Of a stretch of 64,000 nucleotides of DNA, positions 4,091-61,412 are shown piece after piece. Location: positions 1,302,001-1,366,000 of the forward strand of contig CAKKNE010000003.1 of the NCBI GenBank assembly GCA_918797485.1, written 5' to 3'. Source of the stretch: Pelagomonas calceolata (taxonomy: Eukaryota). The notes beneath the pieces were generated by a model. It was not told where the DNA came from. It saw only the letters and a program-made list of their open reading frames with translations, and did no database searches. The translations under genes and the position numbers were made by a program. Position 1 is the stretch's first letter; the number at the start of each line of letters is the position of its first letter.

Positions 4091-4112
4091 GCTAGTGTCT
4101 TACGCCGCTGAG
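4091..4112 (+). promoter_or_regulatory. CTAG-box intergenic motif (right arm degenerate)
   Basis: GCTAGTGTCTTACGCCGCTGAG, ~220 bp upstream of ATG 4312. Confidence 0.6.
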
Positions 4113-4311
4113 GCTGCTGGCGCATAATCGCGTCACGTGGAACGTCGGCGGCGCGCGACGCCGCAATCAAGCGACCACAGCGGCTGCGCGGCGTTAATTT
4201 ATAGCCGCAGCGGCTACGTGAACTTGTCGCAGCGCGACCGGCCCAACCTATTATAATCAGCGCTTTGCATTCACAGCGCCTTGGCTCGCGCGCGGCGGAC
4301 GCGGAGCAACG

Positions 4312-5748
4312 ATGCGAACAATATGGTTCACAGCGCTGGTCCTCGGCGTCGCATCTGCGGTCGACTCGGCTGCAACTCCGGCGCCGCAGTCGCGCCCGAC
4401 GCCGCAGACGGCGCGCCCGAGGCCGAAACCGCGGCCGAGGCCGCGGCCAACGCCAACGCGCCCACCTACGGGTCGACCGATGGAGGAGCGGGTCGCAGAT
4501 CTGGAGCGCGAGAACGAAAAGCTCCGGCAAACCCTCCAACCGCCGGCACCGGCGCCGACCGAAAGGCAAGACGAAGACGCCGAGCCACCGAAGCCGAAGG
4601 CCGAGCCGCCAACGCCAAAGGCCGAGTGTTTGCTCGCGAGCGTCCCGCGCAAGGAGCTGTCCGCGTGCGTCCTGGCGAACGGCTTCTGCGTCGCGTCACA
4701 GACCGAGTGCACCGAGCTCGGTGGCCGCTATGACTCGAAAGGGTGCGGCGGCGGCGGCGACTGCGCGTGCTGCGAGGGGATACCCGAGGAGCCTACTCCG
4801 AAGCCGACGCCGGCGCCCACAGTTCCGAGGCCGACACGCAATGAATGTCCGCTTCAGCGGGTACCGCGGAAGTCGTTGTCCGCGTGCGTACTCGCAAATG
4901 GCTTCTGTGTAGGAAGTCCCGACGAGTGCACCGAGCTCGGCGGGCGCTACGATGCGCGGGGCTGCGGCGGCGGCGACGAGTGCGCCTGCTGCGAGGCCAT
5001 CCCAACCGAGCCACCATCACCGCGGCCGACGCTCTCGCCCGCGCCGAGCTCAGACAGCGCTTGCGAGCTCACTGAGGTCTCGCCGAGCTCGCTGCGCACG
5101 TGCATCAAGACGGGCGGCTACTGTGTGGCGACGGCGCGCGAATGCGAGGCGCTGGGCGGCACCTTCGACGCCGTCGGTTGCGGGCCCAGCGCGTCCTGCG
5201 GCTGCTGCGGCGACGTGCCCGACGACGAGGACGAGGACAAGGAGGAGGCCGCGAACGAGGAGCCGGCAGCGAAGCACCTGCGCGCGTCGACGCCGGCGCC
5301 CTCCGTCGGACGCCGGACGCCGCGGCACGCCTACTGGTGGACGCCGCGGCCGACGTTCGCGCCCGTGCCCCCGCCGCCGCCGCCCCGGATCTTCCTCTAC
5401 GTCCGGCTCGTCGCGGTACTGATGGGTCTGGCGGCCCTGGCGGCGGCGCTGCCGGAGCCGACGCATCCGGCCCTGAAGATCCTGCGCTGGCCGTTCTACC
5501 AGCTGTTCGTGTGCATGCGCGCCGGCGTCGTCGGCGCCTGCGGCCTCTGCTTCTCGTTCGGCGACGGCATCGCCGAGTCGCGGCCGCCGCGTCCCCCGAC
5601 CAAGGTCGAGCTCTCGAAAGTGCGCTCCGACGGGTCAGACGACGCGCTCCTCGGCGACGGCGACCTCAACGACGCGTTCGCGGAGTTCGAGAACGAGCAC
5701 GACAAGAACCCGTTCAACCTCTCGGCGACGACGAGTCGGCGCCGGTGA
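4312..5748 (+). CDS. Predicted cell-surface protein with three 8-Cys modules
   Basis: Signal peptide (MRTIWFTALVLGVASA), Pro/Thr linkers, three C-x12-C-x6-C-x6-C-x11-C-x5-C-x-CC repeats and hydrophobic segments near the C-terminus. Confidence 0.75.
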   Translation: MRTIWFTALVLGVASAVDSAATPAPQSRPTPQTARPRPKPRPRPRPTPTRPPTGRPMEERVADLERENEKLRQTLQPPAPAPTERQDEDAEPPKPKAEPPTPKAECLLASVPRKELSACVLANGFCVASQTECTELGGRYDSKGCGGGGDCACCEGIPEEPTPKPTPAPTVPRPTRNECPLQRVPRKSLSACVLANGFCVGSPDECTELGGRYDARGCGGGDECACCEAIPTEPPSPRPTLSPAPSSDSACELTEVSPSSLRTCIKTGGYCVATARECEALGGTFDAVGCGPSASCGCCGDVPDDEDEDKEEAANEEPAAKHLRASTPAPSVGRRTPRHAYWWTPRPTFAPVPPPPPPRIFLYVRLVAVLMGLAALAAALPEPTHPALKILRWPFYQLFVCMRAGVVGACGLCFSFGDGIAESRPPRPPTKVELSKVRSDGSDDALLGDGDLNDAFAEFENEHDKNPFNLSATTSRRR

Positions 5749-6254
5749 GGTGTATAAGCTATGTGTGAACTGTGTTTAGATTCACGGGAGGGGGACGCTC
5801 GCAAGAGACCGATGCCATGTTTCGGTCCCCGCGGCGGGGGGAGGGAAGCCTTCAAGAGGACCAAGCGCCACATTTTGGCCCCCAAGGCGGTAGCCTTTTC
5901 ACTGGTCTTGGGATGTGCTAAAAGTACCACATAACCCTACCCCTAGCCTAGGCTTTATTTTTTGCCTCCTAAATTAACGCACCTACGGTCTAAAAATATA
6001 GACAAAAATTTGGACGATAAATACGTATACTTTTTAGGTATAAATGCTATAACTCACGCTAAGACTTTATACATATATGTATACCTCCTTACCTGCTGAA
6101 ATGAAGTCACCGGTAGAAAATCGTTTGTTGGGGCCGAAGAAAGAACCCTCGCATCACTAAGGCGCCTCCGAAAGTTATTCAACCGCAACGCCTAACGCGG
6201 ACGACGACAGTCAATTCACACTTGAAATAAGTTACTTCTGCGATCATCCTCACC

Positions 6255-7475
6255 CTAGAAGTTGAACATGTTCGAGATATTCGCTCCGCTCGGCTGTAAG
6301 ATGTTGTGCTTCATGGGCGGTGAAGAGCAGCTGGCCGGCGGCGGAGGCGGCGGCGGCGGCGGGAACGACGCCGCCCAGCCGCCGTTGTGAGGCGGCTGCG
6401 GCGCCGAGGCGCCGCGCGAGAGCGGCACCGCCGGCGGCGGGAGCCCGAACGCGGCGAAGGCCGGCGCCGACGGCGCGCGCGCGGGCGGCGGCGCCATCGC
6501 GAGGCGGCCCATGGACGAGATCGCGTGCGCCGCGTCGGGCCGCGCGACGCCGAGGGCCATGGGCTGCGGCGTGAAGGCGGCGCCGTTCATGGGCGCGCCG
6601 TTCATTCTCGACCCATTCATCATCGGCGCGGCGCCGTTCATCATTGGCGCCGCGTGGCCGTTCGACGCCGGCGCCGCGTGGCCGTTCGCGTGGCCGTTCG
6701 TCGCGGGCGTCGGCTTCAGGACGCCGCTGTCGCCGAAGGGGTCGAAGGAGGCATCCGCGGCGGGCGCCGGCGCCGGCGACACGACCTTGGCGCCGCCGAA
6801 GGCGGCGAACGGCGCCGCGGGCGGCGCCGCCGGCGCGGCCGCGAACAAATCGGCGGGCGCGGCCGGCGCGGACTCGAAGGCCGCGAAGCCGGCCGGCGCC
6901 GCCTTGGGCTCCCCGGGCGGCGGCGCGATGAAGGCGAAGCCCGACGACGACGCCGCCGCGGCCGGTGGCGCCGGCGCCGGGTCGTCGAGGCAGAGCAGGT
7001 CGACGGCCGGCGTGACCTGGCGCACCTGCGGTGCTTTGCGCAGCTTCGGCTTCACGGCCTTGCGCGGCTTCGGCACGTCCTCCTCTTTATTAGACACGAC
7101 GGCGCCCTCCTGGTACCACAGCTTCTCGTTGTACGCGAGGGCCACGAAGGTCTTCGCTGCTTGTAAACTAACCCCGGGCTTGATCGCGTTCGAGGGGTCC
7201 ATATTGGCCAAAAAAGTAGCGCGGGCGCGCTTGTTCCCACCCTTCCGCAGCTGGTCGACCTCCTTGTGCGTCCAGAAGCTCATCGTCACGGACTTGCACA
7301 GATGCGAATAGGACTGGTGCGCGGACTTGCACGTATGACACACGAAGATGCCGTACTTCATGACGACAGCTCCATGCCCGTGCTGCGCGAAGGCCTGGCA
7401 GTTCGCGCACTTCAGGTTGTGCGGGAGCTTCTTGAGCTTGTCTAACGCCTTCTCGGCGCCGGGTTCGCTCGACAT
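6255..7475 (-). CDS. ArfGAP-domain protein (AGFG-like) with low-complexity tail
   Basis: NLKCANC..GIFVCHTCKSAHQSYSHLCKSVTMSFWT..GGNKRA zinc finger. The canonical arginine after the fourth Cys is not evident. Confidence 0.85.
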   Translation of the reverse strand: MSSEPGAEKALDKLKKLPHNLKCANCQAFAQHGHGAVVMKYGIFVCHTCKSAHQSYSHLCKSVTMSFWTHKEVDQLRKGGNKRARATFLANMDPSNAIKPGVSLQAAKTFVALAYNEKLWYQEGAVVSNKEEDVPKPRKAVKPKLRKAPQVRQVTPAVDLLCLDDPAPAPPAAAASSSGFAFIAPPPGEPKAAPAGFAAFESAPAAPADLFAAAPAAPPAAPFAAFGGAKVVSPAPAPAADASFDPFGDSGVLKPTPATNGHANGHAAPASNGHAAPMMNGAAPMMNGSRMNGAPMNGAAFTPQPMALGVARPDAAHAISSMGRLAMAPPPARAPSAPAFAAFGLPPPAVPLSRGASAPQPPHNGGWAASFPPPPPPPPPASCSSPPMKHNILQPSGANISNMFNF

Positions 7476-7900
7476 TTTTTTGTCGTTTTGTTTTGTTTAT
7501 GTCGACGTCGGCTATCAGTGCGTCTTCCCAAACGATGCAAATGCACAAAACGCAGCGTCGCAGCGTCGCACCGTAATCCGATTTCTTGTAAGATTATTGG
7601 GATGACTGGCTATTTGTGCAACCGCACTTTATGGACTATCGCTGCAGCCAGCAGAGATTATGAGCGACTCCGCGCAGGGCTGCAAACACCCAAATGTCGT
7701 AAAACCAGCGAGAGCGCAGCCGTTTTGCGGGTGCCACGTTGTGTCCTATTTTTTTTTAGCCTCGCTTGCGCGCGGCGCGCTCCGGAGGGATCAAATCGAT
7801 CGATGAAGTCTCCGTGGGTTCGTTTTGATGTGACAGGTACGTGGTATCTTCAGTGTAGGGCCGTTTTGCGACGACGTCCCCGTCGACGTTCGCGGCGCTC

Positions 7901-7951
7901 GTTGCTTTGCTTAGAGCTAGGCTGCTAGCCACCAGCCGCCGCGGGGTCTGC
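7901..7951. repeat. ~50-bp dispersed repeat, copy 1
   Basis: GTTGCTTTGCTTAGAGCTAGGCTGCTAGCCACCAGCCGCCGCGGGGTCTGC, near-identical to 37073-37123. Confidence 0.85.
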
Positions 7952-7980
7952 TCGTTGCTGCTTGGAAAACAAAGATATAC

Positions 7981-9513
7981 TCAAGACACATCGTTATCCT
8001 CCTCAGAATCCTCCCGCTCGCCAAAAGCCGCCCGCTCGGCCGCCCCGCGCACGGCGCGCGCGAGCGCGTCGACGGCCGCGCGGGCGTCGTTCGCGGCCAG
8101 CGACGCGAGGATCGCGTCGAAGCGCTTCGCGTCGCGCGCGGCGAGGCGCGCGCCCGCGCGCCGCGCGTGCCGCGCGCCGCCGGCGCCCAGCGCCGCCGCC
8201 GCCTCGAGGTGGCCGAACGCCTCGGCCGCGTCGTCGCACGCCGGCGACAGGCCGAGCTCGAGCCGCGCCCGCGCGCGCAGCGCGCGCGGCGCGTCGCCCC
8301 GCGCCTCGAGCGGCGAGTACTCGTCGCGGCCGTCGGGCGCCGCGAGCGCCGCCGCGTCGAGCACCGCCACGGCCTCGGCGAGCGCGTCGCGCCGCGCCGC
8401 GGCGTCGTCCTGGAGCGCGCGCGACAGCTCCAATAGAGCCGCACCGCGCCGCCGCGCGTCGCGCGCGTGCTCGGCGCCGTGCTCGAGGACGTCGCGCAGG
8501 TCCGCCGCGGCTAATGCTGCTCTACCAGGCACGCGGTTCGCCGCGCACGCACGTAAAGCCAGCACGCGCTCGCGCAGCGGACTGCCGGGCGGCGCGTGCG
8601 GCTCCGCCGCGTCGAGCAACCGTAATACGTCGTCGAGCGCGCCGCCGTCGTCGTTGTCGTCGTCCGCCTTTCCTGGAGAAAAAGAGGCCTCGACGACGAT
8701 ACGCGACGCCTGAGACGTCGTCCGCTTCCGCGACCGCGTTTCTAAGGCATCGGAATACCGCGCCGTCGCGAGATTGAACAAAGTGCCCGGCGCGTGGGGC
8801 TCGATCTCCAGCGACTTCTCGAGCGCCCCTCTCGCGAGAGAACGCTCGCCTCTGGCCAGTAAAATAGTAGCGACGTTGTTCAGCAGCGGCGCGTTCGGCG
8901 GGAAGTCGGGAGAGGGCGCCGCGTGTAAAGCTCGCGCGTAGACCTCCAACGCGTCGCCCGCCGCGTCGCACTGGTGCAGGGCGTTGCCCAGCGCGTGTAA
9001 AGCTCTAGCGTCGTCCGGCGCCAATCGAGCCGCCTCCTTGAGCGGACCCAACGCGTCCGCGCTCCGTCCACTGAAAGCTAAATAAGACCCCGCGTTGATT
9101 AATAATGCTGCTCTATACGGTGCGTCGTCGGGCGTCAGCTCCAAGGCTTTCTCGAAGGCGTGCGCCGCGGCGCGGGGGCGGCCGCGTTGCGCGGCCTCGA
9201 AGGCGCGCCGCGTCCACCTTTGTGCTGCTTTAGCGGCTCTAGCCTCGTCGTCGTCGTCGTCATCCGGCTCGTCGTCGACGTCGTCGTAGGGCTCGTCGTT
9301 TTCATCATCATTGCCGCCGCGTGGCACGCCGAGTGCTCGCAGCGCCTGTGGTCGGGGCTCGCCGTCGTCAGCATCGGCGCCGCTGCCGCGTGTCACACTG
9401 AGTGCTCTCCTCAGTGGTCGTCTGCGCAGGCCGCCGGAGATTTTTAGAACCAGCGCGAGCAGCAGAATGACTCGATGAGAGAATGTCATCTCAACGAGGC
9501 GAGCTCTCGGCAC
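7981..9513 (-). CDS. TPR-repeat protein with probable signal peptide
   Basis: TPR helices (AFEKALELTPDD; ALHALGNALHQC; ALEKSLEIEPHAPGTLFNLA) and a hydrophobic leader from Met 9489. Confidence 0.75.
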   Translation of the reverse strand: MPRARLVEMTFSHRVILLLALVLKISGGLRRRPLRRALSVTRGSGADADDGEPRPQALRALGVPRGGNDDENDEPYDDVDDEPDDDDDDEARAAKAAQRWTRRAFEAAQRGRPRAAAHAFEKALELTPDDAPYRAALLINAGSYLAFSGRSADALGPLKEAARLAPDDARALHALGNALHQCDAAGDALEVYARALHAAPSPDFPPNAPLLNNVATILLARGERSLARGALEKSLEIEPHAPGTLFNLATARYSDALETRSRKRTTSQASRIVVEASFSPGKADDDNDDGGALDDVLRLLDAAEPHAPPGSPLRERVLALRACAANRVPGRAALAAADLRDVLEHGAEHARDARRRGAALLELSRALQDDAAARRDALAEAVAVLDAAALAAPDGRDEYSPLEARGDAPRALRARARLELGLSPACDDAAEAFGHLEAAAALGAGGARHARRAGARLAARDAKRFDAILASLAANDARAAVDALARAVRGAAERAAFGEREDSEEDNDVS

Positions 9514-9558
9514 GGCTATGCCAACAAAAATATTGACTCAACTAAGTCTTATTGGACG

Positions 9559-9581
9559 CCTAGTGTCTTACTGCCGCTAGC
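9559..9581 (+). promoter_or_regulatory. CTAG-box intergenic motif
   Basis: CCTAGTGTCTTACTGCCGCTAGC in a divergent spacer. Confidence 0.7.
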
Positions 9582-9869
9582 GCGCCCGTGCGCGATCTGG
9601 ACGTTTGATATCTTCGAAGACTCCCTCACCCCCCGCATACACGTGACGTGGCTCGGATCACAGGTCCTGCTGAAACCGCCCCATCATCGAGGCAGCCAGC
9701 AATCCAAGTCATTTGCGCGCGATATTGCTTGCCTGGTGGAACTGCACAGCGAATAGAGCCGTCCACGACTGCTTTTGAGCCCCTGTCTTGCATTTGCTGC
9801 CTGCGCGCCAGTTTTGTGCACCTCGCCGAGGCACAGTGAAAGGCGGGAGCCTCGCCACAGCTCGCAGCG

Positions 9870-10832: not shown

Positions 10833-10890
10833 TCGTCTCTCTCGAGGCTCGTAGTCGCGCCCATGGCGTCGAATACGGACTTGTCCGTTT

Positions 10891-10914
10891 GCTAGTGTCT
10901 TACATGCCGCTAGC
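10891..10914 (+). promoter_or_regulatory. CTAG-box intergenic motif (consensus-like copy)
   Basis: GCTAGTGTCTTACATGCCGCTAGC. Confidence 0.75.
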
Positions 10915-11195
10915 CCACCGTAACTTTACGTAAAGCGCAGAGCGCCAAGCGCGCGTACCGCTGCGCTTCTCTCGCTGTCGCTGGTCGGAAGGCAGCAGTC
11001 TTACCAATCAATAGTGTGCGCATCGATTGCGCTCACCTCACAGCGCATCTATTGCCTCTTTAAAACAAGGGCCACTCAGAGCGCCTCACACAGCAACTGC
11101 AGGAGCGTTGGCGCGCGAATCGCTGCATCTGAACTATATATCAGACGCGCGACCGCATTTTGCACCAAGACTGTCACGGGCTAACTGAGCGAATC

Positions 11196-12842: not shown

Positions 12843-12905
12843 ACTGCGACACTGAGGGCCTGGGGCTGTGCTTTAATTGAATTATCTATAACATGACCCG
12901 TCGAT

Positions 12906-15508: not shown

Positions 15509-15530
15509 GCTAGTGCGTCTAAGACGCTAG
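15509..15530 (-). promoter_or_regulatory. CTAG-box intergenic motif
   Basis: Minus strand CTAGCGTCTTAGACGCACTAGC in a divergent spacer. Confidence 0.55.
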
Positions 15531-15682
15531 TGATCGTTGAGGCCCGGAGCGCCAGCCAGCCAGTACTTCACGTACTCACGCGTGGCAGACGCCCGCGAGT
15601 CGTACTGCTGTCTTATTGATCGCGCTGCGCGCCGCGACTCGCTTACTTTTGTGTGCAGCGGTCTCGCCAACACAACTTCACA

Positions 15683-16564: not shown

Positions 16565-16616
16565 GTCCGGCGCGTGTCTAACTGAACTTGAAGTTATAGT
16601 CTACTTGTTTTTGCCT

Positions 16617-18418: not shown

Positions 18419-18984
18419 TCAACTGGGGGCTAAGCTTCTTTCTACACACCATTCTTCCTTCTTCCTTCCTTCCGGTGCCCCACTAGTCCCGATCTGCCCC
18501 GTACTGTACACTACGGGCGGCGCGGCGGCGGCACAGGGGCGCGCTGCGACGGCGTGGACGGATATATATTGTTACGGTGAAGGACTAGTTGGCGGAGCCC
18601 CTGGGTGGAGACGGCGTGGACGGTGCCGGTAGGCTCAGGCTCAGGCTTGTTACGTCGCAGGTTCCCCGGGGGGTATCCCTAGTATGTTACAGGTAGCTGC
18701 TCACGCCTCGGCCGCTGAGCGGTAAAACGTGCCGCTGTGCCCTTGGTACGACTGCCGACGGCGGCGGCAGCCGTCTGAATTGGTCTAGGCCAGCGCGAGC
18801 CGGGCGGCAGCGGCCGTTGGCAGGATCGAGCCCACTCCTAGGGAGTCCTGTAGAGGCACGCGCAACGCGCCCCAGCGATTTTCACAGCGCTCACCCTGTA
18901 CTGTCGTTGAGGCGAACCGACACATAAAAAACCTCACCGCGCGGATTCGCAAAACGCAAACGCCGTCGACACAACCCAACAAAG

Positions 18985-21666: not shown

Positions 21667-21690
21667 CTAGTGTGTATTACTGACGCTAGC
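21667..21690 (+). promoter_or_regulatory. CTAG-box intergenic motif
   Basis: CTAGTGTGTATTACTGACGCTAGC in a divergent spacer. Confidence 0.6.
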
Positions 21691-21736
21691 TCTGCCCATC
21701 TCCAAAGCCGTCGATTCGCCGTCATTTGTCGCATTC

Positions 21737-24975: not shown

Positions 24976-25475
24976 TGTGCGGCGTGGGGCTGCTTCAGAT
25001 CGTGCGTACGCGGTCGCTGGCGCCGCGTCCGGTCGCTGCGTGCAAATGAGTCCGCGTTCAGCGCGAAATGCCAGCCACAAGTGGACTAAACCGAGGACGT
25101 GCGGGTTCCCTTGCTACGATTGCTGCGATTGCTAAAGACGTCAACCGCATCGTCCCCGGGCACGGCGGGCAGCCAGACAGGGCTAAAGCCCCTTTCAGAA
25201 CCGTGCTAGAGTGTCGACACACGCTACATAATCTCAACTGCTTGGCCGGCCGCGCGTCCTGACAGCCGAGTACATACGTGTCTGCTTACCGATACTATAC
25301 CGAGACACAATCCTCTCGGCCAAGTGTCGCTCGCCCGACAAAAAGTACAACCGCAAGAGCGACAGCAGCCTAAAAACGAAGGCCCAGTGGCAGGCGAAAC
25401 AATTGGAATTCGTCGCCGCGTCGCGCGCGAACGCAGCGTTGAAACGCAGCCTCGAAACGCACAAATCGAGAAAAA

Positions 25476-27656: not shown

Positions 27657-27817
27657 ATCACATATAGTTACACTAACGGGACAGCTGCTGCCTCCGCAGC
27701 CCGCGCTTGAAGTCCTCGACCGGTTCCCGGGGCATCTACTCGATCTCTTTGGGAGCCCTGCCCCCCGGCTACGTCGTCGCCGAAAGCCGTGGTGCGCAAT
27801 CGGTCGCGCCGCCGATG

Positions 27818-27841
27818 GCTAGTGTCTTTACAGGCCGCTAG
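27818..27841 (+). promoter_or_regulatory. CTAG-box intergenic motif
   Basis: GCTAGTGTCTTTACAGGCCGCTAG; no confidently called gene start nearby. Confidence 0.7.
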
Positions 27842-28860
27842 GTCAGCTGACAGACCAAAGACGCGTCCCTCACCCGCCGTTCGATAGTAGGTCGGAAGCT
27901 CATAAGGCGAGTACCGATCACCACTCCCCCGAAACTTCAAGCGCGCGCGGCCGCCGAGCAGAAAACTCACCACTTGAGCTTGGTCGACCAGTGTAGATAC
28001 ACCCCAAATAACCCCCGCGCGCGCACCTCACAAAATCGCCACGGCCAGAAAACGCGCGGCGCCGATCGCCTCGAGCGCGCGGTCGCCGACGCCGCGCGCG
28101 CGCACCGCGTCGCGCCCCGCACGGACGTCGCCGCGCTCGCATCCCAAGTTCCATGACATCGGAGGATCATCAATGCCATATGTAGATGACTTCTCTTCGG
28201 CAGAACGCCGTGTCCGTGGACCTGGCGATCGAGGGAAACGCTATTCGCGCGGCGAAGCCCGTCGCAATGTTGAATACCGCCGCCGGGTGAAGGTCGACTA
28301 CCAACTACCTGATGCGGATGTCCCTGACACGTTATTTTGGATGCCGCAGCAAATTCAAGTGCCACAATCAGTACGTGAGAAACCCATGACATATTTACGC
28401 ACACGCCGATAAGAACACTCTGGCAACATCGCGAAATGCGCCGCGACGACCCCCACAAATCGCCGTGCATCCGCCACCGGAGAGATACGCATAGCGGGCG
28501 CGTAGCGCTTCGACGCCATCGAAAAAAACGTTCATCGGACTGTACGAACGCTAGCTCGATTGTCTGTGAACGCGCGGAGGCGTTGGAAGGCCCCCACAAT
28601 TTCATTCGTTTCGCGTCGAAGCCTGCCAAATGCGTCGGAGGCCCCGTACCAGCAGCCCGACCGGCCCAGCGCGTTGACAGTTGACGACTTGCCGATGGTG
28701 TGCGATACAAGACATACAGGGCGTCCATGCGACCAGAGCGTCCTGTGCTGCCGGCGGCGCGCGGCGGCGGCGAGTTATATCGCGCCCCGCCACCGAGCTG
28801 TCTCGGCCGTAGTATATAATTTACATCTTACACAACTCCCGCCCGGAGAGACGCGCGCGC

Positions 28861-29823: not shown

Positions 29824-30110
29824 CTTCGACGTAGAAGCGCGCGGCGTCTTAGGCTAATGAGGTGAGAGCTGGGTGATCGGGCGCTACCTTCTTGCGTGCG
29901 CGCGTGCCTCCGGCACTCGCGCGGGCGCAGAAGTGGCGCTGCGCGCAGCAGGCAGTTGATTGGCAGTGCGCGGCCGCCCGCGCAACGTTTAGACTCGTTC
30001 CAAGCGGCGCGCGGTGCGTCGCGGTCGGTCTGCGCTGCTGTGAGGACGGGCGCGTGTCAATGCGCGCCTGTACGGCAAACAGGAGGGCAACGCGTTCCAG
30101 GGCTGAGTTT

Positions 30111-30132
30111 GCTAGTGCCTTAGTACGCTAGC
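30111..30132 (+). promoter_or_regulatory. CTAG-box intergenic motif
   Basis: GCTAGTGCCTTAGTACGCTAGC. Confidence 0.6.
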
Positions 30133-30284
30133 TCTTGCATGCGCATCGCTCGATGTCGAGTATCGTGGTTCCTGTAGTCGTCGTCCGTCGTCGTGTCGTC
30201 GTCGCCGTGGGGACTGGTGTTGGTAGAAGAAGAGTACACAAGTCACTTACACAAACCCACCCCAGGCGAGGGGCGGTCGCGCGC

Positions 30285-30767: not shown

Positions 30768-30865
30768 GCGAGCAGTGTCGCTGGCAACAGCGCCGGCACA
30801 AATCGCCTCGCGCCGAGCAATTGGACTAGCCGGCTTGCAGAGGTGCGCTTGCTTGCCAGGCATCC

Positions 30866-30888
30866 CTAGTGTCTTACGTGCCGCTAGC
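30866..30888 (+). promoter_or_regulatory. CTAG-box intergenic motif
   Basis: CTAGTGTCTTACGTGCCGCTAGC. Confidence 0.72.
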
Positions 30889-30902
30889 AAAAACAACAAT
30901 AC

Positions 30903-32483: not shown

Positions 32484-32516
32484 CGTGCATGCGCCGCTGC
32501 CGATGCTGCTGCATTC

Positions 32517-32539
32517 CTAGTGTCTTACAGTCCGCTAGC
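32517..32539 (+). promoter_or_regulatory. CTAG-box intergenic motif
   Basis: CTAGTGTCTTACAGTCCGCTAGC in a divergent spacer. Confidence 0.72.
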
Positions 32540-32891
32540 TCTCGCACTGTTTTTCAGGTTTCGCACGAGACCGTAACGCGCGTACGTTCAGCCATACTCA
32601 CTGGCGGGGTTTCTATCGGAGTGAAGCTAAAACCGTGCCACTGCTCTCTGAATTAAATAACATTGACTCAGGATTCCTGGGAGGCTAGTTTAGGACTTTG
32701 GTCGACTGCAGCGATCGCGCCGGTGTGAGAGACGATGCCGCTCAGGCTCGGAATTTTCGGGAGCACTGTCATAAAACGGCGTCCGAGTTTACGCTCCACC
32801 AAACGATCGCGTCGCCGCCCCGCCCCGCCACCGTCCGGCAAAACTTGGATACACGACAACGACGCCGCGTAACGCGCAGGCGGACAAATTT

Positions 32892-35863: not shown

Positions 35864-36122
35864 GGCTCCTGGGCAGCCCGTGGGTGCCCCTCCCCGGGCG
35901 AAACGGCTGCCCGCTGCTTGGACGCGTTATAGTTCGAGCTGGGGCGCGGCTTTTTCGCTTCCGGCAGCTCCCCGGTTGGGCCCCAGGCGGCGCTATTGCT
36001 CCCTCTCCCAACAGGGCGTTGGTCCTAGAGGGGGCCGCGAGCCACCGCGGGAGCCGCTCTCCGACTCCGTCTGCTCTTGCCTATGGATGCCTGTAGTGAG
36101 AAACGGGTTCCGGAGGCCACTT

Positions 36123-36146
36123 GCTAGTGTCTTACAGGCCGCTAGC
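36123..36146 (+). promoter_or_regulatory. CTAG-box intergenic motif
   Basis: GCTAGTGTCTTACAGGCCGCTAGC in a divergent spacer. Confidence 0.75.
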
Positions 36147-36338
36147 TCGACTAGCCCGGCTCGAGCAAAAACTCAGGCTGGCACGGCGTAACCGTCTTCA
36201 TTTATCACTCTGAGAGCGGCAAATCATTCCTGTACGTGCCTGCTTCGAGTGCTTTGAACGCTCGGGCAAGAATAAGGCAGTGCAGAGCCTGCACACTGCA
36301 TTGAGCTGGCGTCGCATACGTCGTCGCTGCGATAAGCC

Positions 36339-40930: not shown

Positions 40931-40952
40931 GCTAGCGTCACATGGACTCTAG
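40931..40952 (-). promoter_or_regulatory. CTAG-box intergenic motif (degenerate)
   Basis: Minus strand CTAGAGTCCATGTGACGCTAGC in a divergent spacer. Confidence 0.45.
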
Positions 40953-41199
40953 TTTTGCCACCTGTAACATTCGCAGCCTCACGGCCCGCGTAATAGCTCC
41001 CCGCACGGCCCGAGGCCTGTCGCCTGTTCATAGTACCCACGCTGTCCAGCGGGGTAGCTTGCTTGGCTCGCCGGCGTCCCCGCGGCGCCCAATAGCGAGT
41101 AGGCTCCTCCGGCGTCTTCGGCCGACCTGAGCGCATCCGAGCGCCGCCGCGCCGACTTGAGCTCCGCGTGAGGCCACAGCGCCGCCCGCGAGCGCCGAG

Positions 41200-42116: not shown

Positions 42117-42140
42117 GCTAGTATCTTACGGCACGCTAGC
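42117..42140 (+). promoter_or_regulatory. CTAG-box intergenic motif
   Basis: GCTAGTATCTTACGGCACGCTAGC, ~220 bp upstream of the SF3A1 ATG. Confidence 0.7.
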
Positions 42141-42340
42141 TCGGTCCTTTGCCGAGTCGCCCAAGCGCCGCCGACGGCCTGTGCGGCAGCTTGAGGTCGA
42201 AAGCACTCGTGAGAAGCGCTCGCGCCGGCGTTTAGACGCGCTCCGTGCACTTGCCTTGCTCCCCGCGCCGCCGCTTGTGGGCAGCGACACAAAGGAGTAA
42301 ACAGCGCAGGCGACGCGCGCGTCGCGCAGAGGAAAAAAAG

Positions 42341-44422: not shown

Positions 44423-44767
44423 GGAGCTGGGGTGTCCTAAGGCGGTCTTTGAGTACGTCGTTCTGTTGGGACTAGTGGGCCGCGTCTTTCGCTCCCGCCG
44501 CAGGAGGAGTTTGAAACGTCCTCCTTGTGTGGTCAGGCTTCGAGAGGCATCACGAGGGGACTCAGCACAAGGAGTAGGCTTCCGTTGCAAAAGCTAGTAT
44601 GTCTCAGCTAATAACTCAATTCAAACAGCCGCGCTCTCTTCACTAAAACGGTGCAACGCCCGCGAGTTTTACAGCCACAAGCTGTCAAAAGGCGTGCCTA
44701 ATTGACATCCAGCTGCTCCTAAACGCGGAGCGCCAACCAGCCTCTGTAAAGCGCGAAACTCAAAACC

Positions 44768-46596: not shown

Positions 46597-46620
46597 GCTA
46601 GTGTCTCTACAGCCGCTAGC
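46597..46620 (+). promoter_or_regulatory. CTAG-box intergenic motif
   Basis: GCTAGTGTCTCTACAGCCGCTAGC, preceded by a partial copy TTTACAAGGCCGCTAG that shares the CTAG. Confidence 0.72.
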
Positions 46621-46741
46621 ACGCGCTGCTGCGCGCCAAACGAGTCGCGCCAGCTCGCTGGGCTGCGATTTCAACGCATATTCTAGCGCCGAGGCAACCG
46701 CTGCGGTGGCGCGATCGCTGCGAGGCGAGGACAACTCGACA

Positions 46742-47227: not shown

Positions 47228-47275
47228 TGATTTAACTGTAGCTGTGTCTCTTATAGTACCACAGCTACCTCGAGT

Positions 47276-47299
47276 GCTAGCGGCATGTAAGGCACTAGC
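47276..47299 (-). promoter_or_regulatory. CTAG-box intergenic motif
   Basis: Minus strand GCTAGTGCCTTACATGCCGCTAGC. Confidence 0.75.
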
Positions 47300-47451
47300 A
47301 AATCAGCCCGGGGAGGGTGATGACGGCAGCCGGCTGATGGCACCAATGCTCGACGTATGAGTGATGCAATACTAGGTCTTGTGACAGATCAACCACGCCT
47401 TCGACGGCTGCTGCTCTACCGCTCGCTTAAACATGGTTGCATAGCACTGCA

Positions 47452-53639: not shown

Positions 53640-53805
53640 GGCGGGGGGTGGTTGGCCCTGGATCCAAATTTGCTGCGCGTCAAACGACACCACGCCTGGA
53701 TTGTCGCCACCAGTCGTTCAGTTAACGACCTTAGACAATGCGTATGGCGTCCAGTGGCTGCACCTGCAGGATTACGCGCAATTTGCCGCGCCCGGTTTGC
53801 TTGGT

Positions 53806-53829
53806 GCTAGTGTCTTATATGCCGCTAGC
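53806..53829 (+). promoter_or_regulatory. CTAG-box intergenic motif
   Basis: GCTAGTGTCTTATATGCCGCTAGC. Confidence 0.75.
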
Positions 53830-54000
53830 TGATTATTTCACAGCACAGCGAGTCGACGCTAAGTCGCTAGCCGTGGCAAATACGCGGGTCTACGCGGTGT
53901 TACACGTCGCACTTATTATTGATTTTCACACCAGCGCACAAAATTGTCCGTCCGACAGCTGCAAATTGCAACCTGGAAATTTCAGTGGGAAGGATGGCGC

Positions 54001-55663: not shown

Positions 55664-55797
55664 GGTCGCATCGCTGGGCTGCCCTTCGACGCTGCTGCCT
55701 CGCGATACTCAGGAGGTATAAATCGTCTCCCAAAAGTCCGCTTGGCGACGGATGTGCATCAGAGGCAGCCAGAGCCAATAAAATTAATTAATCATTC

Positions 55798-55820
55798 CTA
55801 GTGTCTTACCGCCCGCTAGC
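55798..55820 (+). promoter_or_regulatory. CTAG-box intergenic motif
   Basis: CTAGTGTCTTACCGCCCGCTAGC in a divergent spacer. Confidence 0.72.
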
Positions 55821-55996
55821 TAATCTTCGACGCCGACCAAGCGCGTGCACGCGTCCAGGTCGCATCTTGCAAGCTTCGCGCCTGCAATTGCAGCCAGACC
55901 CGTTTCGCCGCCGCAGCAGTCCTTGCACCGCGCACGTGGAATCCCTGCAAACACGTAGTCAGCTCTCCCAAAGCTCCCCAGCCGTACAGATCAAAA

Positions 55997-58446
55997 ATGG
56001 CAATGATCGCCCGCCGCCTCGCCCTAGGAGCAGCGGCAGCCACGTCCTTATTCAACGAGCGCGTGCAAGCGCTCAGCGCCGCTGCCAAATCGAAGGCCGT
56101 GCCGCCCGTGGCCCCTCGCCGACCGAAGGACATCCTCTTCGGCAAGGTCGCCGGCGAGGACCGCGGCCCGAACCCCATGGACCCGCCCATCGTCCGCCAG
56201 GACCCCTACTTTTGGTTAAGGGACGACACGCGCAAGGACAAGGACATCCTCGCGCACCTCGACGCGGAGAACGCCTACTCCCAGGCGCAGACGGCGCATC
56301 TGGAACAGTTCCGCGAGTCGCTCTATCAGGAGATGTTGTCTCACGTCAAAGAAGACGACGATACGGTGCCGTACAAAGATGGGGACTACATGTACTGGTC
56401 GCGGACCGTCAAGGGGCTCTCGTACAGACAGTACCTCCGCAAGCGCGTCGGGACCGAAGATGAAGTAATATACCTAGACGTCAATGAGGTCAGCAAGACC
56501 TTACCCAATCCAAAACAGTGCGTCGTGAACCAGGTCGAGGCGTCGCCGGACGGGAGCAAGATCGCCTACGCCGTCGACGGGACCGGATATGAGACTTACG
56601 ACATCGTCGTCAAGTACTTAGATGGTTCGAAGCCGGACGAAACGATCACGAAGACCATGGGCGGCGTCGCGTGGAAGGATGAAAAGACCTTTTATTACGT
56701 GGTGGAGGACAAGAGCCACCGCCCTTATCAAGTGTGGCGGCACGTTTTGGGCGAAGCCCAAGATCAAGACCAGCTCGTCTATGAGGAGCTCGACGATCTG
56801 TACAACGTTGCGTGTTGGCGATCTTTAGATGGGTCGCTGATCTTCATCGAGGCCGAGTCCAAGGAAACGACGGAATTGAGATTCATCCCACAAAGCGGGA
56901 CGGAGCCGGTCTTAGTGAGAAAGCGCGAGCCGGGCGTGCGCTACGACGCCGCTTCTCATGCACCCTCGTCTTCGCTGATCCTCACGTCGAACATCGGCGG
57001 CCTGCGCAACCGTGCTTTATTTACGGCACCCGTTTCGGCACCGGCGGACTGGACGCCGCTCATGGATTCTGAAGGCGCCGCCGTGCTGCCCCACGACGAG
57101 GGCCGGTCGCTGGACAACCCGCGCGCTTTTAAGGACTTCGTCGTCGTTACTGGGAGGGAAGATGGCTTCACGCAGATCTGGGTCGCGCCGCTTACGGCGT
57201 CCGGCGACCAGGAGTGTTCCGCGCCCGTCGCGGCGCAGGCGCACCGAATGCAGTTCGAGGCCGACGCGTTCACGGCTCGCTTAGGCGCCAACGCGGAGTT
57301 TGACCCCCAGCAACAGCTGCGCGTCACCTATTCCTCGACCGTCGCGCCCGGCTCGACGATGCAGTACGACATCGCCACTAAGGGTTACGAGGTCCTCAAG
57401 GTCGCGCCCGTCCCCAACTACGACGCTACCTTGTATGATACGGAGCGCCTGGAAGTGCCGGCGCGCGACGGCGTGAAGATCCCGGTGACGTTGTTTTGGC
57501 GCAAGGACCAGAAAAAGCCGAAGATGCCCACGCACTTGTATGGGTATGGTTCTTATGGGATTTCCATGGATCCCTCCTTCTCCGCGTCGCGGCTAGCCTT
57601 AGTGGACCGCGGCATCTGCTACGCCATCGCCCATATCAGAGGAGGCGGCGAGATGGGCCACCACCTGTGTGGAAATCAACCAGTCTGTCGGGTGCCCCGA
57701 CAATCTTCACTAAGTCATTTCTCGGCGATGACGCGGCCGACCTGGCTCGGTCGAGCGGCGAGGAACCGGCATCGCCACGCCATCGAGCAGGCGTCGCGTC
57801 GACGTCGTGGAGGACGACGCGATGATTCAGCACGAACGCGACGTAAAATTTTGATTTCCACACAGGTCATCACGAGTGGTACGAAAAACAAGGTAAATAT
57901 CTGGCGAAGAAGAACACGTTCCATGATTTTGTGGACTGTGCGCGATACCTCAAAGAGAAAGGCATCAGTGGCGACATGTCCTGCGAAGGCCGAAGCGCCG
58001 GTGGACTGTTAGTCGGCAACGCGGTCAACCTCGCCCCGGAGGCCTTCAACGCCTGCATCGCCGGCGTCCCTTTCGTGGACTTGATGACGACGATGTGCGA
58101 CCCGTCCATACCACTAACGACGGAGGAGTGGGAGGAGTGGGGCAATCCTAATGAGGCGAAGTATCACGACTACATGCTCTCGTATTCTCCGATTGACAAC
58201 GTGCAGGCGGGCGTGACGTACCCCCAGATGTTGTTGGTGAGTGGCCTAAACGACCCGCGCGTCGCCTACTGGGAGCCGGCGAAGTGGGCTCAAGTATTAA
58301 GGCACGAAATCGCGAACGGCGACGAGACGCTCGTGAAGATGGATATGAGCGCTGGTCACTTTAGTGCGGCGGACCGCTACCGCTACCTGCGCGAGCTGGC
58401 CTTCGACTACGCCTGGCTGCTGGACGTGTTCGGGAAGGCGGAGTAG
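55997..58446 (+). CDS. ptrB: Oligopeptidase B (peptidase S9A); exons 55997-57656 and 57866-58446
   Basis: DPYFWLRD, LYGYGSYG; spliced HIRGGGEMGHHEWYEKQGK..KNTFHDF; catalytic GRSAGG, DPRV and GH. Confidence 0.93.
57657..57865 (+). mobile_element. Introner intron, subfamily A (209 nt, GC-AG)
   Basis: Perfect 15-bp TIRs at 57665 and 57851-57865; TSD GCCACCAC/GTCATCAC; the 3' two-thirds is near-identical to the 19965 copy. Confidence 0.93.
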
Positions 58447-60063: not shown

Positions 60064-60232
60064 TTTGCGTTGGTTTGGCGTATATGAGGTTCGCGCGGCG
60101 GCGAGTGCTTTTTGGCAAAGTAACCACAGTCAAAACGGGTTTTCGCGCGGACGCATGCGTCTGCAGAGGCTAGCTACGATAAGCGACGTAAGCAATAAAC
60201 GTAACTGTTATACACGAGAAGCAAGCACGAAT

Positions 60233-61177
60233 CTAGGAGCCAATCTGCAAACCGTAGCCGAACTTGAACGAGTCCCGCGGCTTGCCCGGCTCCGCCGCCC
60301 AGCCCAGCGTCATCTCCGCGCTGAACAGCAACTTGGCCGCCGGCGACAGGACCGCCTCGACGCAGGACTGCATCCGCCCGCTGCCGTCGACCGCGAGGTT
60401 GACCCTCGACTGCTTCAACGCAAATTCCGCACCAGCACTGAACGACGCGTCGCCCGTCGCGGGCGCCACGTTCAGCTCCGTGCCCAGCGTGACGCGGTTC
60501 GGACTGACGGTTCGCGCGTAGCCCAGCGCCAACTGGCCGGGCTGCGCCGGCGGCCCCGCGCTCCAGGACGCGACGCCCGACCACTTGTCGCCCGTCCACT
60601 TGAGGGCCGACGTGAACGTCGCCGCGGGCGCCGCCGCCTGGAGGATGCCCTCGCCACCTAAAGCTAGTCGCTTCGTGATGGCCTGGACGTAGCTGCAGCC
60701 GAGGTGCGTCCCGTTCACCCCATGAATGTTCCGCGCGACCTTGAGCTGCGACGACGACGTCGTGCCAATGTAGTCCAAATCGCAAATGCCCACAAAGGCC
60801 TGGGGGTCGTTGGGCAAATTAAAAATGAGCTTGCCCTGCAAGGGGCCGGCGACGGCCCCGACGATCTGGCCCTCCACGGTCCCGTACTGGTCGACGGACC
60901 CGAAGCACACGCGCTCGTTGTCGCCGAGCGTCGCGCCGAACTTGTAATGCTGGTTCGCCGACGGGTAGTGGCTCCCGCCCAACCAGAAATTATGGTTCAC
61001 GGCGAAGGTCGGCGTGAGCGGCTTGCTCACGTCGAACTTCACGCCCTCAAAGGTGTTGCAGTGGACGACCCTCCGGCAGTCGTCGTGGAGCCGCTCGAAC
61101 GGGCCCGGGTTCTTCGGGCCCTGCGTGTCGTCCTCCGCCGGAGCTAATTCGAGGCATCGGGACGCTTTCGCGCCCAT
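60233..61177 (-). CDS. TOM40: Mitochondrial import channel TOM40
   Basis: NPGPFERLH, FEGVKFDVSK, SYVQAITKRLALGGE, KFGYGLQIG. Confidence 0.92.
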   Translation of the reverse strand: MGAKASRCLELAPAEDDTQGPKNPGPFERLHDDCRRVVHCNTFEGVKFDVSKPLTPTFAVNHNFWLGGSHYPSANQHYKFGATLGDNERVCFGSVDQYGTVEGQIVGAVAGPLQGKLIFNLPNDPQAFVGICDLDYIGTTSSSQLKVARNIHGVNGTHLGCSYVQAITKRLALGGEGILQAAAPAATFTSALKWTGDKWSGVASWSAGPPAQPGQLALGYARTVSPNRVTLGTELNVAPATGDASFSAGAEFALKQSRVNLAVDGSGRMQSCVEAVLSPAAKLLFSAEMTLGWAAEPGKPRDSFKFGYGLQIGS

Positions 61178-61388
61178 GGTTGGCTAGGCGCGCGCGTCCG
61201 CGGCGGCAGCGCTCGCTGGAGAGTGCTTGTGCCTCTCGCTCGCTGGAGGGGGCTGGCGTCGAAAGTGCTGGCGGGTACGGCTTGACAGCTTCGCGTACGT
61301 TTCGCCGGCGTCTTAGAGCTATTTCTAGCTCGCAGCGGTGTGACAACGCGTACAGCGCTGGCAAAACCACGGCGGCGCAGGCGGCAGG

Positions 61389-61412
61389 GCTAGCGTTCAA
61401 AGACACACTTAG
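61389..61412 (-). promoter_or_regulatory. CTAG-box intergenic motif (degenerate)
   Basis: Minus strand CTAAGTGTGTCTTTGAACGCTAGC in a divergent spacer. Confidence 0.5.

What the first reader, a model, noticed from the sequence alone, without database searches (positions are those of the whole stretch)
4091..61412. Recurrent ~24-bp CTAG-box element, one per gene-start spacer
Seen: at least 17 copies of GCTAGTGTCTTACAnGCCGCTAGC, at 4091, 9559, 10891, 15509(-), 21667, 27818, 30111, 30866, 32517, 36123, 40931(-), 42117, 46597, 47276(-), 53806, 55798 and 61389(-). Weaker traces occur near 18679, 25205 and 44593. Two CTAG palindromes bracket an asymmetric TGTCTTA core at near-constant spacing, and flanking sequence is not shared. 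All copies are intergenic, essentially one per spacer, and 16 of 17 lie about 30-380 bp from a called start codon. I found none in CDS or in the short convergent spacers. Inference: a genome-wide cis-element bound by a dimeric factor (promoter organiser, nucleosome-array boundary or insulator, or replication origin), or a domesticated transposon footprint. A motif this long at such a high fraction of genes is unusual for a eukaryote, and I know of no description of it.
Basis: partly seen in the sequence, partly recalled or inferred. Interest (0 to 1): 0.9.

Follow-up and report, generated by a model that had tools for sequence, protein, structure and literature searches.

The report
Long shared promoter motif in Pelagomonas
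A 29-base two-part DNA motif sits in about half of the gene-start gaps of this tiny ocean alga, 13-43 bases from where transcripts begin, and likely marks the spot where a still unknown protein would set up transcription in both directions.

Summary
All 17 listed places hold a copy: 14 are strong (about 0.9 expected by chance) and 3 are degenerate. The refined consensus is GCTTG-CTAGTGTCTTAC-(2-4 nt)-CGCTAG-CT. No strong copy lies in coding sequence. In the window, 13 of 27 promoter-bearing gaps carry a strong copy, against 1 of 12 convergent gaps.

A metagenome scan gave 121 further loci with unrelated flanks. Their named protein relatives are all Pelagomonas calceolata. In these loci the motif faces at least one gene start in 50 of 52 cases, mostly in head-to-head gaps, and in either orientation.

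Stranded RNA reads place 11 of 21 transcript 5' pile-ups 13-43 bp from a copy, and all 11 point away from it.

The motif is not a transposon remnant, because the flanks are unconserved. It is not a hairpin, because there is no covariation and folding is weak.

Best reading, at 0.6: it is the binding site of an unknown general promoter factor that organises bidirectional initiation. I found no description of it in the searchable literature.

Still untested: the binding protein, the effect on chromatin, exact start sites, and whether other pelagophyte genera have it.

The parts
4089..4114 (+). motif copy, box A intact, box B degenerate; tandem gap before gene 4312-5748(+)
   Evidence: (15.2 bits)
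9558..9581 (+). motif copy in head-to-head gap (genes 7981-9489(-) and 9870-10832(+))
   Evidence: 24.8 bits; minus-strand RNA 5' pile-up at 9516, 43 bp from motif start
10887..10916 (+). motif copy, exact 24-mer; tandem gap before gene 11196-12842(+)
   Evidence: (34.4 bits)
15509..15532 (-). degenerate copy in head-to-head gap
   Evidence: fuzzy hit 15510-15531; no 5' pile-up listed
18679..18702 (+). weak copy; tandem gap before gene 18985(+)
   Evidence: plus-strand RNA 5' pile-ups at 18715-18722 in all 4 runs, 13-20 bp past its end
21667..21692 (+). copy with an inserted base in box A; head-to-head gap
   Evidence: 10.4 bits; minus-strand RNA 5' pile-up at 21625, 42 bp from motif start
25205..25228 (+). 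weak trace in head-to-head gap; unproven
27814..27844 (+). copy with 1-nt insertion; the exception: 1.2-kb gap between convergent ORFs, only faint plus-strand RNA downstream
   Evidence: 23.1 bits; depth about 1 or less; no convincing ORF
30106..30134 (+). short-spacer copy; tandem gap before gene 28861-29823(-), opposite orientation to that gene
   Evidence: (8.4 bits)
30862..30890 (+). motif copy before gene 30285-30863(-), opposite orientation
   Evidence: 28.3 bits; minus-strand RNA 5' pile-ups at 30826-30834 in 4 runs, 32-40 bp from motif start; plus-strand RNA also present downstream
32513..32541 (+). motif copy before gene 31371-32483(-) and a plus-strand transcript
   Evidence: 30.5 bits; plus-strand RNA depth 12-18 in 32836-33502
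36119..36148 (+). motif copy, exact 24-mer and full 29-bp consensus; head-to-head gap (SAM/ankyrin gene and SURF1 gene)
   Evidence: 37.8 bits; plus-strand RNA 5' pile-up at 36165, 19 bp past motif end
40931..40954 (-). degenerate copy in head-to-head gap
   Evidence: 5' pile-ups at 40894 (minus RNA) and 40991 (plus RNA), 37 bp on either side
42117..42143 (+). motif copy; tandem gap before SURP/PRP21 gene 42341-44422(+)
   Evidence: 18.1 bits; plus-strand RNA 5' pile-up at 42165, 25 bp past motif end
44593..44616 (+). weak copy; tandem gap before gene 44768-45901(+)
   Evidence: plus-strand RNA 5' pile-ups at 44633/44637 (19 and 21 molecules), 17-21 bp past its end
46597..46622 (+). motif copy in head-to-head gap
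   Evidence: 18.3 bits; 5' pile-ups at 46565 (minus RNA, 32 bp) and 46644 (plus RNA, 24 bp)
47274..47302 (-). motif copy; tandem gap before gene 47452-48864(+), opposite orientation
   Evidence: (23.2 bits)
53805..53831 (+). motif copy; tandem gap before gene 51585-53639(-), opposite orientation
55794..55822 (+). motif copy in head-to-head gap (gene 54482-55663(-) and prolyl oligopeptidase gene 55997(+))
61389..61412 (-). degenerate copy in head-to-head gap

Best explanation
This 29-bp two-part motif lies in the untranscribed stretch between or just upstream of transcript starts, and it is likely the binding site of an unknown sequence-specific general promoter factor that would open the promoter and fix where RNA polymerase II starts on one or both sides.

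Shown directly:
- The motif is GCTTG-CTAGTGTCTTAC (box A), a 2-4 nt spacer, then CGCTAG-CT (box B).
- It lies in gene-start gaps, with a preference for head-to-head gaps.
- It occurs in either orientation relative to the genes.
- RNA 5' pile-ups lie about 13-25 bp past box B and about 32-43 bp before box A, so divergent starts are about 80-100 bp apart with box A near the middle.

Inferred:
- A protein binds it. The variable spacer suggests two DNA-reading modules or two subunits.
- That binding positions the start sites or keeps the region free of nucleosomes.
For: 1. Far above chance and confined to non-coding DNA.

2. Tied to gene starts.
- Window: 13 of 27 promoter-bearing gaps against 1 of 12 convergent gaps hold a strong copy (Fisher p = 0.028). 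Counting the 6 degenerate or weak copies, it is 19 of 27 against 1 of 12 (p = 0.0004).
- Metagenome loci with a gene called on both sides: start/start 32, start/end 11, end/start 7, end/end 2 of 52. Two of 124 instances fall inside a predicted ORF.

3. Close to transcript starts.
- In the two 20-kb stretches laid with stranded polyA RNA reads, 11 of 21 clusters of RNA 5' pile-ups lie 13-43 bp from a copy, and all 11 point away from it.
- 9 of the 16 copies in the laid DNA have such a pile-up.
- Strandedness was checked on spliced GT..AG introns.

4. Genome-wide, not a mobile element.
- 114 unique instances have flanks with no conservation beyond -5 and +2.
- No locus overlaps the window.
- Named cluster-mates of 6 loci are all Pelagomonas calceolata proteins, on contigs of five different lengths from 3.9 to 6.3 Mb.

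5. Conserved as an island. In the related promoters L015 and L105 the motif matches at 30 of 31 positions inside a gap-ridden, diverged spacer. In L037 and L075 it sits at the same place but inverted.

6. Two motif-less promoters with mapped 5' pile-ups have A-rich TATA-like runs at a similar distance. This hints that the motif is an alternative promoter type.
Against: - The 5' pile-ups come from ordinary fragmented polyA RNA-seq of one sample, not from cap-based mapping. The tool lists only the best-supported rows. 7 of 16 laid copies show no listed pile-up.
- The gene maps are my own ORF and codon-bias calls, not an annotation.
- The loci were both fished out with the exact motif, so its conservation there is partly by selection.
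- In metagenome gaps that were not used for fishing, only 1 strong and 1 weak hit occurred in 11 promoter-bearing gaps (0 of 17 convergent). The share of promoters with the motif may therefore be well below the window's 48%.
- Copy 27818 has no visible gene start.
- The distances on the two sides differ, although gene direction does not follow orientation.
- The window's strand bias (12 of 14 on +, p = 0.013) is unexplained.
- No binding protein, chromatin data or reporter test exists.
Confidence: 0.6

Rival explanations
1. It is the site of an ordinary transcription factor that controls one very large regulon (for example a diel, growth or stress programme), not a general promoter organiser.
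For: - Only 13 of 27 promoter-bearing gaps in the window carry a strong copy.
- Only 1-2 of 11 unselected promoter-bearing gaps in metagenome loci carry one.
- Other promoters use A-rich boxes.
Against: - The genes beside copies are functionally mixed: K+ channel, SURP/PRP21 splicing factor, SURF1, prolyl oligopeptidase, SMR transporter and TPR proteins.
- The narrow distance to 5' pile-ups is more typical of core or proximal architecture than of a regulon site.
- About 29 conserved positions is far more than needed to pick out a regulon.
Confidence: 0.15
2. It is a directional core-promoter element that replaces the TATA box and is read by the basal machinery, driving the gene on its box-B side.
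For: On the box-B side, 5' pile-ups sit at a tight 13-25 bp in 5 of 6 cases. This puts the motif at about -20 to -48, overlapping the usual TATA position (the TATA position is recalled knowledge).
Against:
- In metagenome loci it points with the gene 7 times and against it 11 times.
- The related promoters L037 and L075 carry it inverted.
- 5' pile-ups also occur on the box-A side.
Confidence: 0.12
3. It is mainly a boundary element: an insulator between neighbouring transcription units, or a roadblock that stops read-through from the upstream gene.
For: - Copies can lie only 14-100 bp past the stop codon of the upstream gene (window 4091 and 10891; distances). Upstream transcripts must therefore end at or before the motif.
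- There is essentially one copy per gap.
Against: A pure terminator or boundary should be common between convergent genes. Only 1 of 12 such gaps in the window, 2 of 52 in metagenome loci and 0 of 17 unselected convergent gaps have one.
Confidence: 0.07
4. It marks replication origins or recombination hotspots that happen to coincide with promoters.
For: The window shows a strand bias of 12 of 14 copies on one strand, which transcription does not explain.
Against: - Density of about one copy per 4.6 kb in the window (14 in 64 kb) is very high for origins.
- Neighbouring copies in metagenome contigs are co-oriented only 5 times of 13.
- There is no GC-skew switch in the window.
Confidence: 0.04
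5. It is the remnant or terminal repeat of a miniature transposon that spread into promoters.
For: - High copy number.
- Two GCTAGC palindromes at the ends.
- One pair of related promoters carries it inverted.
Against: - There is no conservation beyond -5 and +2 in 114 instances, no longer body and no flanking duplications.
- A 29-bp unit is too short to be mobile.
- None was found in 2.9 million viral contigs.
Confidence: 0.02

Closest known systems
General regulatory factor sites of budding yeast (Reb1, Abf1, Rap1) - recalled knowledge
   Same: Sequence-specific sites found in a large share of promoters of functionally unrelated genes. They lie inside the nucleosome-free region, often between divergent genes, and can also block read-through.
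   Different: The yeast sites are 7-13 bp, lie further upstream of the start, and act directionally. This motif is about 29 bp, bipartite with a variable spacer, lies 13-43 bp from the 5' pile-ups, and is orientation-independent with respect to genes. No effect on nucleosomes has been shown here.
TATA box / TBP (recalled knowledge)
   Same: Similar distance upstream of transcript starts on the box-B side. Motif-less promoters in the window have A-rich TATA-like runs at a similar distance.
   Different: The sequence bears no resemblance to TATAWAW. The motif is GC-rich, four times longer, and gene direction does not follow its orientation.
Housekeeping-promoter motifs of animals (Drosophila DRE and Motif 1; human NRF1, ZNF143 SBS, TCTCGCGAGA) - recalled knowledge
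   Same: Positioned motifs a few tens of bp from the start of TATA-less, often bidirectional promoters.
   Different: Those are 8-18 bp and each covers a few percent of genes. Here one 29-bp motif covers 13 of 27 promoter gaps in the window. The sequences are unrelated.
Oomycete INR-FPR core promoter (another stramenopile) - recalled knowledge
   Same: A lineage-specific, unusually long (16-19 nt) core promoter element in a stramenopile.
   Different: INR-FPR overlaps the start site and is directional. This motif lies 13-43 bp away from 5' pile-ups and works in either orientation. There is no sequence similarity as far as I recall; I made no alignment.
Earlier scan note e1-567069: ~25-bp promoter motif in Ostreococcus gene gaps (AI note, unchecked)
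   Same: A long shared motif in the short gene-start gaps of another compact marine picoalga.
   Different: A different lineage (green alga), AT-rich context, next to a TATA-like box. Its sequence was not shown to me and was not compared.

Membership tests
TATA box | TATAWAW-like sequence | tested here: not met
   Consensus is GCTTGCTAGTGTCTTACAGGCCGCTAGCT. It holds no TATA-like run.
TATA box | About 25-35 bp upstream of the start, directional | tested here: inconclusive
   The distance on the box-B side fits (13-25 bp from motif end to pile-up). Orientation does not follow gene direction.
Initiator-type element (Inr, oomycete INR-FPR) | Overlaps the transcription start | tested here: not met
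   All 11 nearby 5' pile-ups lie 13-43 bp outside the motif.
Transposon / MITE | Conserved body between terminal repeats, target-site duplications | tested here: not met
   Information content is about 0 beyond -5 and +2 in 114 instances. The flanks are all different.
Structured DNA or RNA hairpin | Stable stem with compensatory changes | tested here: not met
   DNA folds of 4 copies give -1.1 to -3.6 kcal/mol, z -0.25 to -1.4. When position -1 is C (15 cases), position +1 is G once. The 11 nearby 5' pile-ups lie outside it.
General regulatory factor / promoter organiser site | Present in many promoters of unrelated genes, absent from coding and convergent gaps | tested here: met
General regulatory factor / promoter organiser site | Bound by a protein; creates a nucleosome-free region; loss shifts or weakens initiation | not testable with these tools
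   Needs pull-down or DAP-seq, ATAC or MNase, and reporter mutagenesis.
Known RNA gene or Rfam family | Match to a curated covariance model | tested here: not met
   0 matches in the whole window at gathering score.

The most novel reading that the evidence does not exclude
Pelagomonas, one of the most abundant picoalgae of the open ocean, runs a third to a half of its nuclear promoters on a lineage-specific 29-bp bipartite 'promoter organiser'. An unknown multi-module factor reads it and nucleates initiation about 40 bp to either side of box A. This would be a general promoter grammar unlike TATA/Inr logic and unlike any described eukaryotic core element.
Probability: 0.4. Interest if true: 0.85.

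Novelty: new variant of a known kind. Interest (0 to 1): 0.72.

Why it matters
- **Unusual information content.** Promoter grammar is almost unknown outside animals, fungi, plants and a few parasites. A single motif of about 29 conserved positions at roughly half of the gene starts in a 64-kb sample carries far more information than is needed to find promoters in a genome of about 32 Mb (size from the passages of PMC9481584 seen). This points to an unusual reader protein, or to several functions packed into one site.
- **Better gene models.** The motif gives a direct sequence handle for predicting transcript starts and bidirectional promoters in Pelagomonas genomes and in ocean metagenomes and metatranscriptomes, which improves gene models.
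- **Genetic tools.** It offers a compact candidate part for building expression tools in a group that has none that I know of.
- **Testable evolutionary question.** How do thousands of near-identical 29-mers arise and persist without a mobile element?

Tried and rejected
- **Own genome:** not held, so no genome-wide scan was possible.
- **Viral contigs:** 0 matches.
- **Whole metagenome records behind five loci:** could not be scanned because the records are not held.
- **Orthologues of the window itself:** none among the 121 loci. The only shared stretches are repeats and a TPR gene family.
- **Unbiased motif frequency from metagenome gaps:** too few unselected gaps were reached, 11 promoter-bearing and 17 convergent.
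- **Position-specific signal outside the motif:** none by column. The only signal is a T-run excess in the 30 bp after box B.
- **Extra CTAG, GCTAGC or CACGTG clustering around copies:** none.
- **Hairpin or cruciform:** rejected.
- **Rfam and tRNA scans:** nothing relevant.
- **Co-orientation of neighbouring copies:** 5 same and 8 opposite, so the window's strand bias does not generalise.
- **Coding ORF downstream of copy 27818:** none convincing.
- **Other pelagophyte genera:** among the ORFs next to motifs that I sent for look-up (20 ORFs from 18 loci, 15 found in the collection), 6 loci had cluster-mates that name a species, and all 6 are Pelagomonas calceolata. Presence in Aureococcus, Chrysophaeum or CCMP2097 stays open.
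- **Earlier scan notes:** nothing for this genome or this sequence.
Full report
**1. Organism and setting**

The window is GC-rich (56-70% in 2-kb steps) and densely packed with long ORFs.
- An 855-aa ORF has its best named relatives in pelagophytes: Aureococcus 81%, and Chrysophaeum and Pelagophyceae sp. CCMP2097 74%.
- No whole genome is held for the window.
- I built a gene map from ORFs scored with a codon model trained on the window's own long ORFs. I curated it with stranded RNA depth and Pfam hits.
- The map has 40 genes and 39 gaps: 12 head-to-head, 15 tandem and 12 convergent. This map is my own inference, not an annotation.

**2.

- All 17 listed places carry a recognisable copy.
- The rigid 24-mer with up to 3 mismatches finds 7 copies, with 0 in 100 shuffles.
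- A flexible two-box pattern finds 15, against a mean of 0.9 and a maximum of 3 in 30 Markov-2 shuffles. One of these, at 15719 in coding sequence, is probably chance.
- A profile HMM built from metagenome copies finds 14 hits of 8 bits or more.
- Three listed copies (15509, 40931, 61389) and the three 'weak traces' are degenerate.
- None of the 14 strong hits lies in coding sequence, which covers 76% of the window.
- A strong copy is present in 6 of 12 head-to-head gaps, 7 of 15 tandem gaps and 1 of 12 convergent gaps. With the six degenerate or weak copies, the first two counts become 10 of 12 and 9 of 15.
- The convergent exception (27814-27844) lies in an unusually long 1.2-kb gap. It has only faint plus-strand RNA downstream and no convincing ORF.

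**3. The motif elsewhere**

- An exact-pattern scan (box A, 2-4 nt, box B) found nothing in viral contigs.
- These stretches hold 126 instances, of which 124 are unique. The inner spacers are 4, 3 or 2 nt in 82, 38 and 6 cases.
- In the 114 unique instances with at least 80 bp on both sides, conservation extends only to TTG (weakly GCTTG) before box A and C(T) after box B. Every column further out has information content near zero.
- The consensus is GCTTG CTAGTGTCTTAC AGGC CGCTAG CT.
- No locus overlaps the window. The shared stretches are introner-like repeats, a TPR gene family and one 100-bp repeat.
- I sent 20 ORFs next to motifs (from 18 loci) for an exact look-up, and 15 were found in the collection. 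Six loci had cluster-mates that name a species, and all six are Pelagomonas calceolata. One ORF is 100% identical to its Rab28. The contigs have five different lengths between 3.9 and 6.3 Mb.
- The motif is therefore spread over the genome of Pelagomonas-like algae. Whether other genera have it was not testable here.

**4. Relation to genes**

In the metagenome loci, 52 instances have a gene called on both sides, using the same ORF caller.
- 32 lie between two gene starts.
- 18 have a gene start on one side only: 11 on the box-A side and 7 on the box-B side.
- 2 lie between two gene ends.
- In addition, 2 of 124 instances fall inside a predicted ORF, one of them right at a doubtful start.
- Distances to the start codon are similar on both sides, mostly 50-270 bp.

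Orientation therefore does not predict gene direction. In the related promoters L037 and L075 the motif sits at the same place but inverted.

In gaps of the metagenome loci that were not used for fishing, hits are rare: 0 of 17 convergent, 0 of 6 tandem, and 1 strong plus 1 weak of 5 head-to-head. The numbers are small, but they warn that the window's 48% may overstate the genome-wide share.

**5. Relation to transcripts**

- Public polyA RNA runs of the same organism exist as raw reads. I laid four runs from one sample on 27500-47499 and on 4000-23999.
- The library is stranded, with the first mate antisense. Reads across a GT..AG intron on the plus strand (19954>20128) have the first mate on minus. 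Reads across a CT..AC intron (20998>21171) have it on plus.
- In the tool's table of places where many molecules begin or end, the 'end' rows are RNA 5' ends. At 36165, six molecules 'end' although the bin to the left has a depth of only 0.29.
- These rows form 21 clusters. Eleven lie 13-43 bp from a motif copy and all eleven point away from it.
  - Past box B, by distance from the motif end:
    - 36165: 19 bp
    - 42165: 25 bp
    - 46644: 24 bp
    - 44633/44637: 17-21 bp (weak copy)
    - 18715-18722: 13-20 bp (weak copy)
    - 40894: 37 bp (degenerate copy)
  - Before box A, by distance from the motif start:
    - 30826-30834: 32-40 bp
    - 46565: 32 bp
    - 9516: 43 bp
    - 21625: 42 bp
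    - 40991: 37 bp
- Two copies show both partners: 46565 with 46644 (79 bp apart) and 40894 with 40991 (97 bp apart).
- Three clusters lie in gaps without a motif (7699-7729, 16980, 17048). Two of them have A-rich runs about 20-35 bp upstream.
- Seven clusters are inside genes.
- Nine of the 16 copies in the laid DNA have a pile-up. The others lie beside weakly expressed genes, or their rows were not listed.
- If starts were spread evenly over the roughly 170 bp between motif and start codon, about one in five would fall in a 31-bp band. Eleven of eleven would be very unlikely. This is my rough estimate, not a tool result.
- These are fragment-end pile-ups, not cap-mapped starts.

**6. What it is not**

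- **Not a transposon.** There is no shared body or flank.
- **Not a hairpin.**
  - DNA folds of four copies reach only -1.1 to -3.6 kcal/mol, no better than shuffles.
  - The positions flanking the two CTAG boxes do not covary.
  - The eleven 5' pile-ups near copies all lie outside the motif, so those transcripts start beyond it.
- **Not a known RNA family**.
- **Not primarily a terminator or boundary.** Convergent gaps lack it.
- **An origin-like role is unlikely.**
  - The density is very high, 14 copies in 64 kb.
  - Neighbouring copies in metagenome contigs are co-oriented only 5 times of 13.
  - The window's 12-of-14 plus-strand bias (p = 0.013) remains unexplained.

**7. Mechanism**

The best-supported reading is a protein-binding site at the centre of a narrow promoter region that can fire to both sides.
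- The two boxes share GCTAG and are separated by a spacer that varies by two bases. This suggests two DNA-reading modules joined flexibly, or two subunits. This is inference.
- A T-run excess in the 30 bp after box B may be a further part of the promoter. There are 54 TTTT words in that stretch, against 0-8 per 10-bp bin further out.
- The related promoters L015 and L105 keep the motif at 30 of 31 positions inside a spacer full of gaps and changes. Both loci were selected for having the motif, so this is only partial evidence of constraint.

**8. Comparison with known systems**

These comparisons rest on recalled knowledge, not on tests.
- It works most like yeast general regulatory factor sites or animal housekeeping-promoter motifs.
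- It is two to four times longer than those, is bipartite, lies closer to the starts and is indifferent to orientation.
- It is not a TATA box or an initiator, as the membership tests show.
- An earlier, unchecked note of this scan (e1-567069) reports a ~25-bp promoter motif in Ostreococcus gaps. Long shared promoter motifs may be a feature of compact picoalgal genomes.

**9. Literature**

- The genome paper PMC9481584 has no occurrence of 'motif', 'promoter', 'intergenic' or 'palindrom' in its main text. I saw passages only, not the supplements.
- Searches for Pelagomonas with motif or promoter, for pelagophyte or Aureococcus promoter motifs, and for stramenopile bidirectional or core promoters listed nothing relevant by title or abstract.
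- One preprint, 10.1101/2025.04.21.649811, was checked by passages and is unrelated.
- The 12-mer box A occurs in one listed paper, on yeast diphthamide, which I judged unrelated from its title alone and did not open. Its reverse complement occurs in none. The shorter 10- and 11-mer words occur only in papers that are unrelated by title.
- Subscription journals and supplements are not covered, so 'undescribed' means not found in these searches.

**10. Verdict**

- The element is real, genome-wide and promoter-linked.
- The promoter-organiser reading is well supported by position, but it is untested for binding and function.
- I rate it a new variant of a known kind, with interest 0.72.

Noticed in passing
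window 19954-20128, 20998-21171, 57663-57866; loci L009, L020, L044, L045, L052, L074: Introner-like repeats of about 170-200 bp. Two lie inside introns that the RNA reads show spliced (173 and 172 nt). Copies of 76-100% identity occur in unrelated metagenome contigs, and very many partly matching reads come from elsewhere in the genome. Introners are known from the related Aureococcus (recalled).
   Followed up: partly
window 41996-42098; L062 837-913; L066 2218-2321: A 100-bp repeat lies about 20-80 bp before box A of the motif in all three places. Its first 30 nt are shared with a highly expressed RNA from another locus (103-432 reads per run with uniform foreign flanks). There is no Rfam match.
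   Followed up: partly
window 7730-7765 and 16940-16960: Motif-less promoters with mapped 5' pile-ups (7699-7729 and 16980) have A-rich TATA-like runs about 20-35 bp upstream. One is an A9 run.
   Followed up: partly
window, all copies: 12 of 14 strong copies (16 of 20 with weak ones) lie on the + strand whatever the gene direction (p about 0.013). Neighbouring copies in metagenome contigs show no such bias (5 same, 8 opposite). Unexplained.
   Followed up: partly
L037 1154-1174 and L075 552-573: Two related promoters (74% identity in the adjoining gene) carry the motif at the same distance from the conserved block but in opposite orientation.
   Followed up: yes
L015 1370-1520 and L105 155-300: Besides the motif, two further conserved islands sit in this diverged promoter: one of about 22 bp and one containing CACGTG.
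   Followed up: no
30 bp after box B in 104 instances: TTTT words are enriched at 25, 13 and 16 per 10-bp bin, against 0-8 further out. A weaker mirror-image A-run excess lies before box A.
   Followed up: partly
window 17032-17357: A joint that skips 324 nt with non-canonical ends (AG..AC as printed, movable by 3) is seen in 40-111 reads per run on the plus-strand RNA. It would remove the predicted start codon of gene 17225-18418.
   Followed up: no
window 31384-31414, 33183-33206, 37650-37704, 13023-13068: Short 20-30-nt pieces where hundreds of reads join to other places or strands with variable flanks. They look like conserved words of multi-copy gene families such as the TPR family at 37836-38321.
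   Followed up: no
window 40487-40569: ARAGORN calls an 83-nt tRNA-Arg(CCT) inside a minus-strand ORF. Rfam does not. It is probably a false call.
   Followed up: no
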